Below, one piece after another: positions 5,057 through 29,727 of a stretch of DNA of 37,646 nucleotides. This DNA is from a virus. Taxonomy: Duplodnaviria; Caudoviricetes. The position numbers were made by a program, and so were the translations under genes. The DNA lies in IMG/VR virus record IMGVR_UViG_3300013004_000008, positions 1-37,646 of that record; one strand, given 5' to 3'. The notes under the pieces are model-generated. The model was not told the origin of the DNA and did no database searches. It worked only from the letters and a program-made list of their open reading frames with translations. How positions within the stretch are numbered: position 1 is the first letter of the stretch; every line of letters starts with the position of its first letter.

Positions 5057-5479
5057 ATGCTCTCATCCACAACAACCCAGACCGGACAACTCACTGGCAA
5101 CGCATCCACCAGCATAACCTACGCGATTGGCTTTCCGCTTGCGGATGCAGCAGACATCCAAGCAATCACTAGGGTTACCGCTACAGGAGTCGAGGCAACA
5201 TTGACATCCGGTCAGTTCACGTTCACCCCAACGATCACTTCCGGCAGAATCACCGGAGGCACTGCAACGACCAATCCGGCGATCCCAATTACCTCGACCA
5301 TCCGCTTCCGCCGCGTGACTCCGCGAACGCAGACCTTCGACGTTGTCCAAGGCTCCCGCTTTTCCGCCGAAGCACTGGAGTCCGCGCTCGACAAAATGAC
5401 AATGATCTTGCAGGAGATCGAGCGTGACTACCTTGCGGCGGATGTTGCCATCGACACTCGACTCGACGCACTTGAATAA
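5057..5479 (+). CDS. T7 gp17-like tail fibre N-terminal adaptor domain, stand-alone (140 aa)
   Basis: TGNASTSITYAIGFP...IRFRRVTPRTQ...GSRFSAEALESALDKMTMILQE matches the podovirus fibre attachment domain pattern. It follows the large ejection protein and stops after a short coiled coil. Confidence 0.75.
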   Translation: MLSSTTTQTGQLTGNASTSITYAIGFPLADAADIQAITRVTATGVEATLTSGQFTFTPTITSGRITGGTATTNPAIPITSTIRFRRVTPRTQTFDVVQGSRFSAEALESALDKMTMILQEIERDYLAADVAIDTRLDALE

Positions 5480-22330: not shown

Positions 22331-22364
22331 CCCGCTCATCCTTCGGGGTGAGCGGGTTTTCTTT
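22331..22364 (+). terminator. Rho-independent terminator after the capsid genes
   Basis: CCCGCTCATCC-TTCG-GGGTGAGCGGG followed by TTTTCTTT. Confidence 0.92.
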
Positions 22365-22368
22365 GAAT

Positions 22369-22439
22369 CGCGGGATAGTCTAGAGGTATGACGGGAGGTT
22401 CATATTCTCCAAACACGGGTTCGATTCCCGTTCCCGCAA
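22369..22439 (+). tRNA. tRNA with CAU anticodon (Met/fMet-like, atypical)
   Basis: Acceptor CGCGGGA/TCCCGCA, D-arm GTC/GAC, anticodon arm GGAGG-TTCATAT-TCTCC (CAT at 22401-22403), T-arm ACGGG-TTCGATT-CCCGT; CCA not encoded. Confidence 0.88.
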
Positions 22440-22451
22440 TCTACTGCGAAC

Positions 22452-23027
22452 ATGGCTGATGTAGACATCGCGAACCTAGCCCTCTCCCATCTGGGAGCGC
22501 AAAGGATCGCGTCACTGTCTGATACCAGCAAGAACGCTATCGCCTGCCGCCTGCATTACGACACGGTTCGCGACTCGCTACTCAGAACCAGGCTTTGGAA
22601 ATTCGCCATCGTCCCGGTCAAACTGTCGAAGCTTGCGGATGCTCCCATCTTCGGCTGGAGCAACGCATTCGTCCTCCCGCACGATTTCCTGCGTGTCGCT
22701 ACGTTCAACGGTTTCGAGGTCGATCTCCGCGCCTCAGAGTTCCGCATCGAGGGACTCACGCTACTGACTGACGCTGATGAGGCGCAGATCACCTACGTTC
22801 AGCGAGGAGTTTCCGCAGATCGCTTCGATTCCAACTTCGTCGAGGTGCTTGCCTACCGTCTCGCGGCAGCAATCGCGATGGAGATCACGCAGTCCGCCGA
22901 TCTCCGCAACATGATGGAGGCAATGGCGGCAGAGAAGCAGAAAAAGGCAGGACATGTCAACGCCGCACAAGGACGCTCGACCGTGATCTCGGGACCGTCT
23001 GACGCAGCATTCGGGAGGCACTATTAA
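22452..23027 (+). CDS. Tail tubular protein A / adaptor (T7 gp11-like), copy 1
   Basis: VDIANLALSHLGA..I.SL, YDTVRD.LL....WKFA, F.LP.DFLR, FD..F..VLA..LAA.IA. Confidence 0.9.
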   Translation: MADVDIANLALSHLGAQRIASLSDTSKNAIACRLHYDTVRDSLLRTRLWKFAIVPVKLSKLADAPIFGWSNAFVLPHDFLRVATFNGFEVDLRASEFRIEGLTLLTDADEAQITYVQRGVSADRFDSNFVEVLAYRLAAAIAMEITQSADLRNMMEAMAAEKQKKAGHVNAAQGRSTVISGPSDAAFGRHY

Positions 23028-26000
23028 TGGCTACACCTACCGACATCTGCAACATGGCGATCTCACGGTTGGGGCAACCGAAGATCAACGATATCGGCGA
23101 GAACTCAGCGGCAGCAATCGCTTGCCGCGATCACTTTGAACCAGTTCGGGATGCTCTCCTGCGCGGACATCCTTGGAACTTCGCGACCGTTAGGGCGGAT
23201 CTTGCTGAAGGTGCGACTCCCGAATACGGCTGGAGCAGATCCTTTACCCTGCCGGATGACTTCCTGCGACTCAATACCGTCAACGGAGTCGAGGCATCGA
23301 GGTGCGAGGCAGACTACTCCCTGACGTTTAGAACGATCTACAGCAACGCGGACACGCTCCAGGTTACCTACGTCAAGCAGATCGAGGACACTACCCTGTT
23401 CGATCCTCTGTTCGTCGAGGCATTCGTTCTTAAGCTTGCCGCAGCAATCGCTCCCAGCATCGCAGATCCCACTGAGAAGAGCGCGATGGAGGGACTGTCC
23501 GCTAGCAGGCTAAGGGATGCCGCCTTCGCAGACGCGAGCGAAAACCGCTCGATGATCTCGACAACGTCGATGGGCGCGGCATCCCGCTACTATCGACCGC
23601 AGGCAGTAGCATTCGACGCATGGGGACCGTCCGTTGGGATCAAGGGGGGGGACGGCTGGACTCCGCTGATTAGCCTCGTCAATGACGCAGGCAGGGAGGT
23701 TGTCTACGTCTACGATTGGACGGGCGGCGACGGCATCGCACCGAAACCGGGAATCGGCTACGTTGGCAGATACGGGATTGTTTCAAACATCGCGGATGCG
23801 GTTAGCATTCGTGGAACTAATGGACCCAACTCCGTCACTACGTCCACAACCACTAATATCTCGGGACTTCTGAAAGGTAATGGCAATGTCGTCTCTGCGG
23901 CTACTGCCGGAACCGATTATGCTGCCGCAGAACACACTCACGATGGGGATACACTCGGATTTGTTGAGAAGATTCAGTTCGATACGACTCCCACGGGAGT
24001 TGCTACAACCGTTGGGGATTTGATCTGGAATGTCGAGGAAGAGACGCTCGATCTACAGTTAGACGGGTTTTTGATGCATATCGGGCAGCACCTGATCTAC
24101 CATGCGCAAAATCAATCGGGATCGCCAATTGCCAAGGGCACTCCGGTCATGTTCGATGGAACGGATGGAGGTAGCGGAAAACTTCTCATCAAGCCCTGGG
24201 ATGGGACAGGTCCGGCAACCCTATTCATGGGGATAACCGGAGAAACATTTGCAAATGGACATCAAGGTAGCGTAGTGGCTTTTGGAAAACTCAGAGACAT
24301 CCAGACCAACGGCGCGAACTACAGTCAAACGTGGGCAAATGGAGAAATTATTTATGCAGGGACCAACGCAGTAAAACTGACAAATACAAAACCTTCTGCG
24401 CCAAATCCCATAGTTGAGGTGATGGCAGTAATCCGATCCCACGCTAACGCTGGGATTGTTTTTGTTCGCCCGAATTATTTCACTGCGGATGTCTTTGGAC
24501 CGTCGAGCGCGACCGATAACGCCATCGCTAGATTCGACGGGACGACCGGGAAGTTGATCCAAACTGGTGGCATCACCATCGCTGACGGGGCTACAGGCAC
24601 TTTGGCTGGGTCCAACTCCGGTGACGTTACGCTAACCGGAACCCCGAACTACCTGACTATCGCGAACCAAGTCATCACCCGTAACAACGTAAATCTGGGT
24701 TCCCACGTTACCGGGACTCTCCCTGTCGCGAACGGTGGCACTGGGCAAACTTCCCTTGGCGCGATCAACGCAGCCGACTTTGGGTCTGGCGCAGCAGCCG
24801 ATAACTACGTCCTCACCGCAGATGGCGCAGGAGGAGCGGCATGGGAAGTTTCGGGAGCGCCCATAACGGGGACGGGACTTGCTTACGTTCGCACGGGAGG
24901 CGATAACTCAACCGCAGTGATCGGCAATCCCTCAAAGCCTTATTCAACCGGACAGGCTGCGTGGAACGCGAACGCGACTAGTTTCGATTTTGGTCCCGGC
25001 TCATTTTCAATTGATGCGGCTTTTGGTAGCGGTGGGTATTCTTTGCCGATTTATGTGCAAGGCGCAGGTATTTCGGCCTCCACTCTTACATTTACATGGA
25101 GAGGGGAGGATGGAGTAGAGCAGAACGGATTTACCGCGCCGGATTTAAATCTTTCATCAGATAAAAGCGTCTACTTGATAGTCGCCATTGAGGGCGGGGA
25201 CGGAACATCCGCCGTATCAGACCCATATAACGGTGGAAACGTCGCCAATCATTATTTTTCTAATTGCTACATTAGCACATTGTCACTTACGCAAGGCGCA
25301 GGATGCAACGGTGGAACAAGCGGAACTCAAGCAACCTCTTCTGGTGCTGAGTTCACGACCATCGTCACGGGGGCACTTCAAGGCTCAACGATTTACAAAA
25401 ACGCAATCCTTGAGGCTGGAGTCTTTTCTCCTGACAAGCTAACAGATGGGAACAAGGGCAATATTACCGTCTCTGCATCAGGAACCGCATGGAGCGTAAA
25501 TCAAAACTCCTTACAGCTTGACACGCTTGTTGCCGCAACTGCCAAAGGGAAAATTATCGGAAGAAAAACCGCAGGGGCTGGCAATTTTGAGGAATGCGAC
25601 ATCTCTGATTTTATTACAATTACACCCCCCGCTGCAACAACATCTAACATCACAGACAACACAAACACTGTTTCCAATATTACCGGAATGTCCTTTTCTA
25701 TTGCTGCTAACGAAAAGGTTACGGCAATTTTTAAAGGTTTCTGGGCTACAAACACCTCTGGGTCTGGATTCAAATATGCGTTCACTGGCCCAAGTTCACC
25801 GACTGCCGTGCAGATTGGCGATTTTTGCCTTACGTCCGCGACTGCGGGTAGGACAGAATCCGGCATGACCGCATTCGGCACTGTCGCAACTCAAGGAGGT
25901 GGCACTCTGTTAAACAGTGCCATGCCGATCATGATTCAGATTTTTGTTAACAATGGGTCAACTCCCGGCACTGTTCAATTGCAAATGAGCGGAGAGGTCA

Positions 26001-26059
26001 ATGGCTCCACTTTCACGCTTTATAAAGGTTTCACGATGCAAGTCCTCAGAATCCCATGA
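23027..26059 (+). CDS. Tail tubular protein A copy 2 (aa 1-~189) fused to a long tail-fibre-like region
   Basis: The N-terminus aligns by eye along all of copy 1. The remainder is Gly/Thr/Ala/Ser-rich with common fibre segments (SATDNAIARFDGTTGKLIQ, VTGTLPVANGGTG, DGNKGNITVS). Confidence 0.88.
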   Translation: MATPTDICNMAISRLGQPKINDIGENSAAAIACRDHFEPVRDALLRGHPWNFATVRADLAEGATPEYGWSRSFTLPDDFLRLNTVNGVEASRCEADYSLTFRTIYSNADTLQVTYVKQIEDTTLFDPLFVEAFVLKLAAAIAPSIADPTEKSAMEGLSASRLRDAAFADASENRSMISTTSMGAASRYYRPQAVAFDAWGPSVGIKGGDGWTPLISLVNDAGREVVYVYDWTGGDGIAPKPGIGYVGRYGIVSNIADAVSIRGTNGPNSVTTSTTTNISGLLKGNGNVVSAATAGTDYAAAEHTHDGDTLGFVEKIQFDTTPTGVATTVGDLIWNVEEETLDLQLDGFLMHIGQHLIYHAQNQSGSPIAKGTPVMFDGTDGGSGKLLIKPWDGTGPATLFMGITGETFANGHQGSVVAFGKLRDIQTNGANYSQTWANGEIIYAGTNAVKLTNTKPSAPNPIVEVMAVIRSHANAGIVFVRPNYFTADVFGPSSATDNAIARFDGTTGKLIQTGGITIADGATGTLAGSNSGDVTLTGTPNYLTIANQVITRNNVNLGSHVTGTLPVANGGTGQTSLGAINAADFGSGAAADNYVLTADGAGGAAWEVSGAPITGTGLAYVRTGGDNSTAVIGNPSKPYSTGQAAWNANATSFDFGPGSFSIDAAFGSGGYSLPIYVQGAGISASTLTFTWRGEDGVEQNGFTAPDLNLSSDKSVYLIVAIEGGDGTSAVSDPYNGGNVANHYFSNCYISTLSLTQGAGCNGGTSGTQATSSGAEFTTIVTGALQGSTIYKNAILEAGVFSPDKLTDGNKGNITVSASGTAWSVNQNSLQLDTLVAATAKGKIIGRKTAGAGNFEECDISDFITITPPAATTSNITDNTNTVSNITGMSFSIAANEKVTAIFKGFWATNTSGSGFKYAFTGPSSPTAVQIGDFCLTSATAGRTESGMTAFGTVATQGGGTLLNSAMPIMIQIFVNNGSTPGTVQLQMSGEVNGSTFTLYKGFTMQVLRIP

Positions 26060-26493
26060 TCGCGACAATCCACGACATCCTTTCGATTGCGTGGCCTGAC
26101 CGTGGGGGTTGGCGCGTCTACGGCGAAGAGATCACCGCAGGAGACGGTGGACCCGTCCCAACGATGGAGGAGATCGAAGCGGCACGACCTGCTGCTGAGA
26201 TCCTCCATGCCGCGCACCTGGCAGCAGCTACCCTTGCAAATACACGGGCGAACTTGATCCTGACCCGCGCGCAATTTGGTGAGATGCTGATCCGCCGTGG
26301 GATCAAAGCCACCGTCCTTGCCGCCATTGCCGCGATCCCAGATCAGACCACTCGCGACATTATGACCGAATGGTTTGAGTATGCCCCCACCGTTCGCAGG
26401 ACTTCTCCAAAAGTCGAGGCGATCCGCCAGCAGTTGATGATCGATGCGGATGACGTTGACCTTTGGTTTACGGAAGCAATGTCCTACGAGTAA
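26056..26493 (+). CDS. Tail fibre assembly chaperone-like protein
   Basis: Directly after the fibre; LTRAQF...WFEYAPTVRRTSP.V...DVDLWF.EA pattern of post-fibre proteins. Confidence 0.65.
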   Translation: MIATIHDILSIAWPDRGGWRVYGEEITAGDGGPVPTMEEIEAARPAAEILHAAHLAAATLANTRANLILTRAQFGEMLIRRGIKATVLAAIAAIPDQTTRDIMTEWFEYAPTVRRTSPKVEAIRQQLMIDADDVDLWFTEAMSYE

Positions 26494-26499
26494 TTACAA

Positions 26500-29400
26500 A
26501 TGAGCCTACACGTTCACCGCAACAGCTTCAACGCAGGCGAGCTATCTCCGCTCATGGATGCTCGCGTGGACGATGCGAAGCATCCGTTCTCCTGCCGGAT
26601 CATGGAGAACTTCCTACCGAAGATTTACGGAGGAGCGTTTCGTAGGCCGGGAACTATGTATCTGGGGACGTTGCCAACGGTTGAGAATTGGAGTCAAACC
26701 ATTGCGCCAAACAACTTAGACGGCACAAACACTGTGCCAAGCGCAACTGACGACACTCCTACTTACCAGATTGGCAGCCTGTGGTTGCGAAATGTCCAGA
26801 TTCCCTACCGTTGCTCAAACGCAACTGCCGCAAGCGCAGTTTGGGGACAACTAGGAGTGAGGCATGATCTTGTCCAAGTAGGAACTCCAGGGAACGACCA
26901 AAACTCAAGCGTTGGATACGGAGTCCACTCACTTTGGGTAGCTGGCGGAACAATTTACAAATGCACCGCAGTAACTGCTAATAGTGCAACTTGGTCACAA
27001 GTAACCGTATTCTGCAACCTTACTGCAACGCTTGCTCCAACGACTAGCAACTACGTCAGCATCGTTGTCGGGTCTTTGTGGCTCATCCCAGATACTGGAG
27101 CCTTGTGGGAATGCACTGCTCGACCGACAGGGACTACTGCGACTTGGGTAAGGCGCACCGCCCCGGTTCTTAAAGAGATCCCACAAAGCACTGTTCATGT
27201 TGCCACAAAAGGTTTCGACGTGGGAGACTTTGCGATATACAAAGGATTTGCTTGGAAGTTGACGAGTTTAGGCCCAGGGAGCGCAACGTGGACACAGCAA
27301 TTGGTGAAGCATTCGACCGAAGAAGAACGTAACCCAATTTCCACCGACGACACATTGGACGGATTTTCGGTTGAATCAATTTGGGTGCAAAACATTCGGA
27401 CTTTGTATGTTTGCAATAGCGCAACGGCAAACTCTGCGGTGTGGGTAATTGATACGGATGCAAATGAACTCAACGCCACAAGAGATCCCATTGGATCTGA
27501 CGTTGAAAACTATTGGATAAATGCAAGCACCAAAACAGGTTGGGTTCGCGGCGCGGCATCGACTACCCCCGGCAGGCTTATCGACTTTAATTTCAGCGCA
27601 ACAGAAAGACGAGTTGTTGAACTTCGCGAAGGGTCTGTCCGGTTTTGGAAAGATGGAGGAACACTTGTTCCAAGGCTTAGCGATAGCGAACCGTTGGAAC
27701 TTACCACCCCATATCTTGAGACGGACTTGTTTGAGGTGCAAATCGCGCAGTTGGGCAACATAGCTTACCTTTGCCATCCAAATCATCCACCACAAAAACT
27801 TGAGCGTTTATTCGATGCCACCATCCAAAAAGAAACTTTTACTTGGTCTGAGGTGGAATGGTCATTCCCGGCATTTCGCGACTTAAATATCAGCAACGTA
27901 ACGGCAAGGCTATTGAATTCTTCTTCTGGATTTACGCAAATTGCCTTCACGGGAAATCCATTTACTGAATCTTTAAGCCCCACCGACTACAAAGACGCGA
28001 GGATTATGCTTCGCCATAAGCGAACTGAGAGTCACGTTTCATTGGCCTTGAACTCAACAGGTAACCTCTCTTCAGAAATCAAAATTCTTGGAGATTACCA
28101 AGTATATACCTACGGAACATTTGTAGGAACCTTATACGTTGAGCAAAAATCCTTGTCTGGAGATTGGCTTCCAATTAAAACGTTTCAGTTTGCCAATGAA
28201 ACAAACGGGCGTCAGATCGTGTATTCGTCCTCAACTAAGGAACCTTTAGTGCTTCGGTTGCGCGTTGTAACATCAACAGTTGCTTCAACCCCAGCGCAAA
28301 TCGCATACCTAGAAGCAGGAGACGCAAACGTAATAGGATACGCCAGAATTATTGACGGCATCAACCAGGTTGGTGAATCCCCGGTCGTTGATTGTGCAGT
28401 TGAGCTTGCGTTTAACTCTACAAGCCCTACAACCGAATGGGCGATTTCCTCATGGGCAGAATACGCAGGATATCCGCGATCTGTATGTTTCCATGAGCAA
28501 CGCCTGTGGTTTGGAGGAACAAAGCTACAACCGAACACAATCTGGGCAAGCGCAGTAGGCGACTACGAAAATTTCCGGCTAGGCGCATTCGATTCCGATT
28601 CTCTTGCGTTCACGCTCGCGGCACAAGAGGGGAGCGCGATCCAGAGCATGGTTTCGCATGAGTCGCTTGTAATCTTTACGCAGTCCGAAGAGTGGACGGC
28701 AGCAACGTCGCAACAGACGATCATTACGCCTTCCAACATCTTCGTTCGCCGACAATCCCGATTCGGATCTGCCCACAAGCAAGCGTTCATCGCCGCAAAC
28801 AACCTGCTATTCCTGCAACGCGGAAACCGAAAGCTTCGGCAGTTCACGCATGGAGCAGCAGGAGGGGAAGAGCAAGCGTCCGATCTTTCTGTCTTGGCGG
28901 AACACATTACAATCGGAGGGATCAAGCAACTCGCGTTCCAACAGCAACCGGACCCTATTGTTTGGATGATCCGCAACGATGGGGTTCTGATTTCGATGAC
29001 CTACGAGCCGGACCAAAGCGTCATCGCATGGGCACGGCATACGTCAGGGAGTGGACTGTTTGAATCGGTCGCAGTCATCTATGGTGCGGACGGTGATGCG
29101 GATCAGGTCTGGTTCGTTGTCAATCGCGGCGGCACTCGCAGCATTGAGAGATTCGATCCATCCCATTTTTCCAAGCTAGAGCAAGGGACGTTCGACAAAC
29201 TCGTCTACGTTGATTGCGCCAAAATGGCAGAAGGGACGAACCTGACCTCACTCACCGGACTAAACCATCTCAACGGGCAATCAGTCGCGATCCTCGCAGG
29301 AGGAGGAGTCGAGCCTTTGCAGACCGTTACGTCCAACCAAGTGACCGGAATCCCTGCGGCAAGCGTCATTATCGCAGGATTGCCATTCACCTCCCGACTG

Positions 29401-29727
29401 CAACCGTCGAAGATCGAGGTGGGCATGGCGGATGGCACTTCGCAAGGCCGGAAGCATACGTCCAAACGGGCAACGGTTAATCTGTGGAAAACCTATGGGG
29501 CGCAATATGCCGACAGTCCTACCGCAGATGAGAACAACTGGTTTGAGATTCTCAACCGCTCTACTGAAACCAACTCCGGTTCACCAGAGCAATTGTTCAC
29601 CGGACTTGTTGACATTAACAACCTTGACGCACATAGAACAAGTGTCGATTTGACGATTCGGCAGACCTTGCCTTTGCCGTGCAATGTGCTGGCTATCATC
29701 CCGAAAATTGAGGTTCTTGGAAAATGA
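26500..29727 (+). CDS. Tail tubular protein B / nozzle (T7 gp12-like) with a ~300 aa repeat insertion
   Basis: NSFNAGELSP, GGAFRRPGT, YP.SV.FHEQRLWFGG, IWAS..GDYENF, LFLQRG, DLS.LAEH, AWARH, YVDC, AGLPF. Confidence 0.93.
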   Translation: MSLHVHRNSFNAGELSPLMDARVDDAKHPFSCRIMENFLPKIYGGAFRRPGTMYLGTLPTVENWSQTIAPNNLDGTNTVPSATDDTPTYQIGSLWLRNVQIPYRCSNATAASAVWGQLGVRHDLVQVGTPGNDQNSSVGYGVHSLWVAGGTIYKCTAVTANSATWSQVTVFCNLTATLAPTTSNYVSIVVGSLWLIPDTGALWECTARPTGTTATWVRRTAPVLKEIPQSTVHVATKGFDVGDFAIYKGFAWKLTSLGPGSATWTQQLVKHSTEEERNPISTDDTLDGFSVESIWVQNIRTLYVCNSATANSAVWVIDTDANELNATRDPIGSDVENYWINASTKTGWVRGAASTTPGRLIDFNFSATERRVVELREGSVRFWKDGGTLVPRLSDSEPLELTTPYLETDLFEVQIAQLGNIAYLCHPNHPPQKLERLFDATIQKETFTWSEVEWSFPAFRDLNISNVTARLLNSSSGFTQIAFTGNPFTESLSPTDYKDARIMLRHKRTESHVSLALNSTGNLSSEIKILGDYQVYTYGTFVGTLYVEQKSLSGDWLPIKTFQFANETNGRQIVYSSSTKEPLVLRLRVVTSTVASTPAQIAYLEAGDANVIGYARIIDGINQVGESPVVDCAVELAFNSTSPTTEWAISSWAEYAGYPRSVCFHEQRLWFGGTKLQPNTIWASAVGDYENFRLGAFDSDSLAFTLAAQEGSAIQSMVSHESLVIFTQSEEWTAATSQQTIITPSNIFVRRQSRFGSAHKQAFIAANNLLFLQRGNRKLRQFTHGAAGGEEQASDLSVLAEHITIGGIKQLAFQQQPDPIVWMIRNDGVLISMTYEPDQSVIAWARHTSGSGLFESVAVIYGADGDADQVWFVVNRGGTRSIERFDPSHFSKLEQGTFDKLVYVDCAKMAEGTNLTSLTGLNHLNGQSVAILAGGGVEPLQTVTSNQVTGIPAASVIIAGLPFTSRLQPSKIEVGMADGTSQGRKHTSKRATVNLWKTYGAQYADSPTADENNWFEILNRSTETNSGSPEQLFTGLVDINNLDAHRTSVDLTIRQTLPLPCNVLAIIPKIEVLGK

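What the first reader, a model, noticed from the sequence alone, without database searches (positions are those of the whole stretch)
22452..26059. Duplicated tail adaptor (gp11-like), with the second copy fused to an ~820 aa fibre
Seen: two adjacent genes share the whole tail-tubular-A pattern (DIANLALSHLG / DICNMAISRLG; VRDSLLRTRLWKFA / VRDALLRGHPWNFA; FVLPHDFLR / FTLPDDFLR; LAAAIA in both). Copy 1 ends GRHY-TAA. At the aligned position copy 2 reads SRYY-CGA (23594-23596, one substitution from TGA) and continues into fibre-like sequence, followed by a fibre-chaperone-like gene. Established: in T7-like tails gp11 is a single dodecameric ring and trimeric fibres dock on it through the gp17 N-terminal domain. 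Inference: here the receptor-binding fibre is covalently built on an adaptor paralog, implying a mixed or stacked double adaptor ring. I do not know of a described tail with this arrangement.
Basis: partly seen in the sequence, partly recalled or inferred. Interest (0 to 1): 0.85.

Follow-up and report, generated by a model that had tools for sequence, protein, structure and literature searches.

The report
Phage neck ring carrying fused fibre
An uncultured short-tailed lake phage has two neighbouring genes for the ring protein that joins head to tail, and the second continues in frame into a long, swappable, predicted three-stranded tail fibre, so its likely host-gripping fibres would grow straight out of an extra neck ring instead of being clipped on as separate proteins.

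Summary
Observation confirmed. The two genes are 40% identical over 187 aa, both match phrog_394, and copy 2's N-terminus folds like the Carin-1, LME-1 and T7 gp11 adaptors. The CGA junction is intact in independent assemblies. In close relatives the adaptor part is nearly constant while the extension varies (585-1010 aa). The extension is a mosaic of tail-fibre modules with a predicted trimeric tip (0.87, best control 0.00). One complete related genome has both adaptors fibre-fused and no plain copy, so fused domains must build the neck there. Poly-adaptor relatives with 5, 7, 8, 9 or 16 polarised repeats favour stacked rings, which would give four fibres per ring; a mixed ring is not excluded. 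A trimeric fibre fused to an adaptor paralog was not found in 10 literature searches. Verdict: new variant of a known kind, interest 0.68.

The parts
22452..23027 (+). Adaptor copy 1, plain gp11/epsilon15-type (191 aa), with the I-x-S-L loop typical of single-copy adaptors
   Evidence: phrog_394 E 2.4e-49; 8ck1_E E 1.3e-9; pN far below pS among 4 strains; loop comparison
23027..23593 (+). Adaptor domain of copy 2 (aa 1-189): helix bundle, beta fibre dock, C-terminal arm
   Evidence: phrog_394 E 1.4e-45; model of aa 1-265 mean pLDDT 85.9; 8ck1 Z 18.6, rmsd 3.1, 180 aligned; 9efk Z 17.9; T7 gp11 7box E 2.5e-6
23567..23638 (+). Low-confidence linker (aa 181-204) holding the CGA junction; few synonymous changes, significance inconclusive
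   Evidence: pLDDT under 50 at 181-204; 5 of 21 versus 185 of 367 variable codons, scan-corrected p 0.72
23636..23812 (+). Conserved first fibre module (aa 204-262), shared with tail fibres of other phages; followed by Gly-X-Y repeats in several relatives
   Evidence: Caulobacter, Edwardsiella, Vibrio phage tail fibre matches, 43-54% identity
23948..24550 (+). Exchangeable middle fibre module (about aa 308-508)
   Evidence: Nitrincola 1M3-16 tail protein E 4e-24, Pseudomonas Rollin tail fibre E 5e-14; absent in some close relatives
24878..26059 (+). Distal fibre (aa 618-1010) shared with fibres that have unrelated N-terminal anchors; ends in a jelly-roll knob (aa 867-1010); aa 780-1010 predicted trimer
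   Evidence: Up to 86% identity to P0167-P0187, none with an adaptor domain; weak TNF/C1q/needle-knob likeness, best Z 6.4; trimer score 0.87, best control 0.00
26056..26493 (+). 145-aa gene after the fibre, XkdW-like lead, possible fibre assembly factor (untested)
   Evidence: phrog_6034 and 14311, unknown function; Atlas 0.94, XkdW in 22% of cluster members
26500..29727 (+). Nozzle (gp12-type) with an insertion of about 300 aa near its N-terminus
   Evidence: phrog_376 E 1e-156 from aa 355; insertion has no PHROG match
5057..5479 (+). Stand-alone 140-aa fibre-anchor domain (gp17/epsilon15-type N-terminus) with no fibre attached
   Evidence: Matches only N-termini of 11 PHROG tail or fibre families; kept at 61% and 95% identity in G001 and G004
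22368..22441 (+). tRNA-Met(CAT) directly upstream of adaptor copy 1, behind a terminator-like hairpin at 22331-22356
   Evidence: tRNA-Met also in 8 of 10 related loci scanned, one of them the window's own record

Best explanation
The phage has two adaptor genes, the second fused in frame to a variable tail fibre, and the two proteins most likely form two stacked 12-subunit rings between portal and nozzle, from which the predicted three-stranded fibres would project directly, about four per fused ring. Shown: the two genes, the adaptor fold, the open junction, the mosaic fibre. Predicted: the trimer of aa 780-1010. Inferred: each paralog makes its own ring; three neighbouring ring subunits bring their extensions together through the flexible linker (aa 181-204); copy 1, with the usual nozzle-side loop, is the nozzle-facing ring and copy 2 the portal-facing ring, so fibres leave near the capsid; the fibre binds host surface receptors; and the 140-aa anchor still fills the six adaptor-nozzle sockets as a structural part or a hub.
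For: Fold and family. Constant anchor with variable extension in 10 proteins; distal half shared with fibres that have other anchors. Trimer: 0.87 against best control 0.00, runs agree in at least 89% of contacts, pLDDT at least 87; the mark was reached by 20 of 30 solved pairs and 1 of 23 single chains, counts only rough here. Collagen, tail-collar and beta-helix domains on other fused adaptors. G001 (100% complete) has 2 adaptor matches, both in fibre-length frames, so fused domains must be ring-competent. Stacking: 102 of the 150 top profile hits have 2 or more adaptor domains in one chain, 19 of them with 5, 7, 8, 9 or 16, which do not divide 12. In 74 such proteins the first domain best keeps residues 11-30 and only the last keeps the C-terminal arm (gap fraction 0.85 first, 0.88 middle, 0.31 last, 0.15 in 87 single adaptors). 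This matches solved polarity: C-terminal helix on the portal in T7 (PMC6702177) and residues 15-26 on the muzzle in crAss001. Three genomes each pair one S-L loop type with one D-I type.
Against: No direct evidence on ring geometry in this phage. Both copies keep both the loop and the arm, which a mixed ring would also need. In L203 both copies are of the D-type and 61% identical. The stacking argument comes from other, single-chain proteins, and the profile ranking favours repeats. The first-domain signal may partly reflect alignment edge effects. Four trimers on a 12-fold ring mismatch the six-fold nozzle and have no precedent that I found. The full-length model was poor (pLDDT 35.6), so aa 265-780 are structurally untested. 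Host and receptor are unknown.
Confidence: 0.55

Rival explanations
1. One mixed ring: copy 1 and copy 2 alternate (6+6) in the two non-equivalent positions over each nozzle subunit, giving two trimeric fibres (two plus two in the double-fused relative).
For: Both copies keep the portal arm and the nozzle-side loop; 37-40% identity and weak grouping in one clade, SH-aLRT 83; L203 copies 61% identical; a 12-to-6 interface has two positions; proposed as an open option for PhiGT1.
Against: Poly-adaptors with repeat numbers that do not divide 12 and with end-specific features; crAss001 paralogs each form their own ring.
Confidence: 0.25
2. Only part of the copy 2 subunits carry the fibre: a recoding event or proteolysis at the junction yields a short adaptor that fills most positions.
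For: Few synonymous changes at 23570-23637 (5 of 21 codons versus 185 of 367, Fisher p 0.023, window chosen after the fact); none in X10 among the rows shown; a small hairpin recurs in 4 of 4 strains; both shifted frames stop soon after the junction; disordered linker.
Against: Scan-corrected permutation p 0.72; folding z-scores only -0.4 to -1.7; the G8 run is not conserved; strains are mosaic, which can give such patches; phiVC8's extended adaptor was found at full 74.1 kDa in virions.
Confidence: 0.1
3. Copy 2's adaptor domain is only a peripheral anchor that docks a fibre trimer on the outside of a normal copy 1 ring.
For: A plain copy 1 exists; copy 2 scores below typical single adaptors over part of the beta dock (columns 91-110).
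Against: G001 has no plain copy; VP2-like phages carry the extension on the adaptor gene in the usual position before the nozzle; copy 2 keeps the whole helix bundle under purifying selection.
Confidence: 0.08
4. Assembly error or a recent loss of a stop codon in one strain.
For: CGA is one base from TGA.
Against: Junction intact in independent assemblies, in 4 of 4 strains and 10 of 10 proteins; many distant fusions.
Confidence: 0.01

Closest known systems
Single-ring podophage adaptors: Carin-1 connector (8CK1), LME-1 orf17 (9EFK), T7 gp11 (7BOX, 6R21), epsilon15 and HTVC010P-type tail tubular protein A (phrog_394)
   Same: Sequence family, fold and position between capsid genes and nozzle
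   Different: One gene of about 190-220 aa, with fibres docked as separate trimers. None of 180 and 238 GenBank phage records had a second matching place.
Dual tubeA phages PhiGT1 and Bcep22-like (PMC10386132; abstract, passages and section 4.1 read)
   Same: Two adjacent adaptor genes; same open question of two rings versus a mixed ring
   Different: Those pairs are extremely divergent and arose by recombination of ancient lineages; here 40% identical. No fibre fusion is mentioned in the passages read.
Crassvirus tail barrel (PMC10172136; section on the tail barrel and passages read)
   Same: Paralogous adaptor-fold proteins; the model also matches crAss001 ring chains (Z 7.6 and 7.1)
   Different: Fibres attach through 12 separate hub trimers, not by fusion; three or four ring genes; unrelated virus lineage.
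Vibrio VP2, QH, K292 and phiVC8 741-750 aa tail protein (phrog_9239)
   Same: Adaptor domain with a long covalent C-terminal extension; the 74.1 kDa phiVC8 protein was found in virions (PMC4802629, passages)
   Different: One matching place per genome; extension is Ig domains plus a Gly-rich domain; the shown receptor-binding fibre is a separate gene, gp20 (PMC8101328, passages). The passages read call it a tail protein and do not identify the adaptor domain.

Membership tests
gp11/epsilon15-type podophage adaptor | Sequence profile match | tested here: met
   phrog_394 E 2.4e-49 and 1.4e-45. Pfam PF17212 not hit by either copy at E 0.01 but hit by relatives.
gp11/epsilon15-type podophage adaptor | Helix bundle, beta fibre dock and C-terminal arm | tested here: met
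   Modelled for copy 2 only. Copy 1 by sequence.
gp11/epsilon15-type podophage adaptor | Gene between capsid module and nozzle in a portal-bearing podophage | tested here: met
   Portal, capsid and nozzle matches
gp11/epsilon15-type podophage adaptor | Single short gene, fibres attached non-covalently | tested here: not met
   Two matches in the complete genome, one in a 1010-aa protein
gp11/epsilon15-type podophage adaptor | Dodecameric ring on the portal | not testable with these tools
   Needs a large-complex model or cryo-EM
PhiGT1/Bcep22 dual tubeA | Two adjacent adaptor genes | tested here: met
PhiGT1/Bcep22 dual tubeA | Pair drawn from extremely divergent ancient lineages | tested here: not met
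   40% identity; both in one weakly supported clade, SH-aLRT 83, quick tree
Crassvirus multi-ring barrel | Each paralog forms its own stacked ring | not testable with these tools
   Indirect support only
Crassvirus multi-ring barrel | Tail hub proteins carrying the fibres | not tested
   No search for THA or THB was run
VP2-like Ig-extended adaptor (phrog_9239) | Ig-domain extension | tested here: not met
   No Pfam match in P0002 versus Ig_3 E 1e-23 in VP2; alignment limited to aa 1-163
Phage tail fibre | Mosaic modules shared with annotated fibres behind a constant anchor | tested here: met
Phage tail fibre | Homotrimer | tested here: met
   Prediction only, aa 780-1010: 0.87, best control 0.00
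Phage tail fibre | Binds a host receptor | not testable with these tools
   Host unknown

The most novel reading that the evidence does not exclude
A widespread uncultured podophage group uses the head-tail adaptor as a stackable, fibre-bearing module: each ring of twelve subunits grows four covalently attached trimeric fibres or spikes, two rings can display two different fibres (as in G001), and ring number is set by gene or domain copy number. This would be a tail whose receptor-binding fibres have four-fold rather than six-fold symmetry and are wired directly to the portal-binding arm that may signal DNA release.
Probability: 0.4. Interest if true: 0.85.

Novelty: new variant of a known kind. 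Interest (0 to 1): 0.68.

Why it matters
In solved podophage tails the fibres are separate trimers clipped between adaptor and nozzle. Here the fibre is part of the adaptor chain, at the end that grips the portal in T7. That predicts an unusual count (four or two fibres), a different path from receptor binding to DNA release, and a direct test of the open two-ring versus mixed-ring question raised for PhiGT1, because the fibre marks one paralog in any image. It also shows that long 'tail fibre' or 'hypothetical' proteins can hide the adaptor, which matters for annotation, and that the adaptor C-terminus tolerates large appendages in nature.

Tried and rejected
Full-length AlphaFold2 model: pLDDT 35.6, unusable except for a weak C-terminal jelly roll (best Z 6.4 is under the tool's caution line of 8). 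Programmed frameshift at the G8 run near 23643: not conserved. Overlapping signal at the junction: inconclusive; the X10 probability was computed after the fact and ignores mosaicism, so it is not used as proof. No promoter or terminator match at the junction; no Rfam match there. Pfam and NCBIfam gave nothing for either copy. Locus scans with P0013 and P0015 returned only fibre-module matches, so whether those fusions have a tandem partner is unknown; 74 of 79 loci from P0014 were not full-length matches. L280 lies in a Microbacteriaceae MAG, possibly mis-binned; not used as host evidence. Runs with a small share of words were not used except X15, laid. The careful tree did not finish; the quick tree has 48 of 107 forks open. 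No c1-c2 complex was modelled; the single job went to the fibre trimer. Earlier-finding searches returned nothing. Supplements of the cited papers were not read and could mention such fusions.
Full report
Setting. The window is a complete phage genome with a 123-base terminal repeat, found in lake and freshwater runs. It encodes terminase, portal, capsid and a gp12-type nozzle. Its adaptor relatives among cultured phages are the HTVC010P-like and epsilon15-like podophages.

The observation. Genes 22452-23027 (191 aa) and 23027-26059 (1010 aa) are 40% identical over 187 residues, E 2e-39. Both match phrog_394 and the Carin-1 connector. A model of copy 2 aa 1-265 from 101 sequences has pLDDT 85.9, with a low-confidence linker at 181-204; it matches Carin-1 (Z 18.6, rmsd 3.1, 180 aligned), LME-1 (Z 17.9) and T7 gp11 (E 2.5e-6). 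The genome has exactly two adaptor matches. The CGA codon is intact in assemblies from other studies (contigs, not raw reads), in 4 of 4 strains and as R190 in 10 of 10 proteins. Both adaptor domains show far fewer amino-acid than silent changes. An artefact is excluded.

The extension is a fibre. Among 11 hits, ten cover the adaptor domain at 90-100% identity, with lengths 585-1010 aa; the extensions diverge after about aa 262. Aa 204-262 and about 308-508 match annotated tail fibres and tail proteins in 29 GenBank records. Aa 618-1010 is up to 86% identical to proteins with unrelated N-termini, and 0 of those 24 has an adaptor domain. Aa 780-1010 is predicted to form a trimer: score 0.87, best of 3 controls 0.00, runs agreeing in at least 89% of contacts, pLDDT at least 87; in calibration 20 of 30 solved pairs and 1 of 23 single chains reached the mark, and those counts hold only roughly for three copies. 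The tip has weak likeness to TNF/C1q-type knobs (best Z 6.4). Receptor binding is inferred from this constant-anchor, variable-tip pattern.

The arrangement is a lineage trait. Of 279 loci held, 179 had an adaptor domain and 19 showed a tandem gene, a repeat or an extension. These 19 reduce to about six phage types: the window's close lineage (9 loci, including duplicates and the window's own record), L095-L099 (one phage), L202, L203/L204, L066 and L086. Short loci may hide a neighbour. L280 adds another close-lineage pair. L202 and L203 have a short copy followed by a fused copy. L099 has two fused copies, 861 and 758 aa, with collagen, DUF5907 and tail-collar domains; its complete record G001 has only these two matches. 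L066 joins three adaptor domains to a pectate-lyase-like spike. In the 150 best profile hits out of 21,407, 13 have one adaptor domain plus more than 200 further residues and 5 have several domains plus more than 300.

Stacked or mixed. 102 of those 150 hits are chains of 2 or more adaptor domains, 19 with 5, 7, 8, 9 or 16; the ranking favours repeats, so this is no frequency estimate. Such numbers cannot tile a 12-member ring. In 74 chains scored against 87 single adaptors, the first domain best keeps residues 11-30 and only the last keeps the C-terminal arm. In T7 the C-terminal helix grips the portal (PMC6702177, passages; also the PhiXacm4-11 preprint, passages), and in crAss001 residues 15-26 of the last ring bind the muzzle. 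This polarity fits an axial stack. For the window itself the evidence is weaker: both copies keep loop and arm. The window, L099 and L202 each pair an S-L loop type with a D-I type, but L203 has two D types. I put stacked rings at 0.55 and a mixed ring at 0.25. Twelve chains give four trimers; six give two. The phage also keeps a 140-aa fibre-anchor domain with no fibre, conserved in G001 and G004, which suggests that the six ordinary sockets are still filled.

A possible short form. The junction has few silent changes (5 of 21 codons against 185 of 367), but the scan-corrected p is 0.72, folding is unremarkable and the G8 run is not conserved. I leave this open at 0.1.

What is known. Dual adaptor genes are published for PhiGT1 and Bcep22-like phages (PMC10386132; abstract, passages, section 4.1). 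Stacked paralogous rings are solved for crAss001 (PMC10172136; one section and passages), and a 2026 paper lists crassviruses as the only type lengthened by tandem adaptors (PMC13730344, passages). Vibrio VP2-like phages have a 741-750 aa adaptor with Ig domains, and the phiVC8 protein was seen in virions at 74.1 kDa (PMC4802629, passages); VP2's shown receptor-binding fibre is another gene (PMC8101328, passages). PMC4819975 (passages) mentions no such fusion. Ten searches of an open-licence library found no report of a trimeric fibre fused to a podophage adaptor; subscription journals and supplements were not covered. None of 180 and 238 GenBank records had two matching places, though very divergent pairs such as PhiGT1's would be missed. 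Earlier AI notes of this scan report poly-adaptors and adaptor fusions in other genomes; they are unchecked and were seen after my result.

Verdict. Real and conserved; a new variant of a known kind. The duplication has precedent and so does a long extension. The combination, an adaptor paralog carrying a swappable trimeric fibre, with some relatives built only of such fusions, appears undescribed and makes a sharp structural prediction. Interest 0.68.

Noticed in passing
window 22331-22451: A terminator-like hairpin and a tRNA-Met(CAT) gene sit directly before adaptor copy 1, which has no obvious Shine-Dalgarno; tRNA-Met occurs in 8 of 10 related loci scanned.
   Followed up: partly
window 26662-27564: The nozzle carries an insertion of about 300 aa of repeated units with no PHROG match; it varies in L099 and L280 and may be a second binding module.
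   Followed up: partly
window 5057-5479: Stand-alone 140-aa fibre-anchor domain without a fibre, conserved in relatives.
   Followed up: partly
proteins P0018-P0164: Poly-adaptor proteins with 2 to 16 tandem domains; P0068 and P0072 have about 1100 extra residues at the N-terminus, P0068 with Ig domains.
   Followed up: partly
L066:3891-7892: Three adaptor domains fused to a pectate-lyase-like beta-helix spike; P0022 and P0035 have four.
   Followed up: partly
window 23570-23637: 68-base stretch at the fusion junction with few silent changes and a small recurring hairpin; not significant after correction.
   Followed up: yes
window 25150-25292: Runs X5 and X6 carry a dense patch of differences inside the distal fibre, suggesting recent exchange of a fibre segment.
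   Followed up: no
L005:6359-7432 and L280:8270-9325: Relatives with the shorter fibre carry an extra 351-357 aa gene of no known family before the nozzle, perhaps a separate tip protein.
   Followed up: partly
L014-L017: Single adaptors of 272 aa with an internal insertion of about 80 aa.
   Followed up: no
L391:9329-11554 (Vibrio phage VP2): The 741-aa protein annotated as Hoc-like or major tail subunit begins with the adaptor domain.
   Followed up: yes
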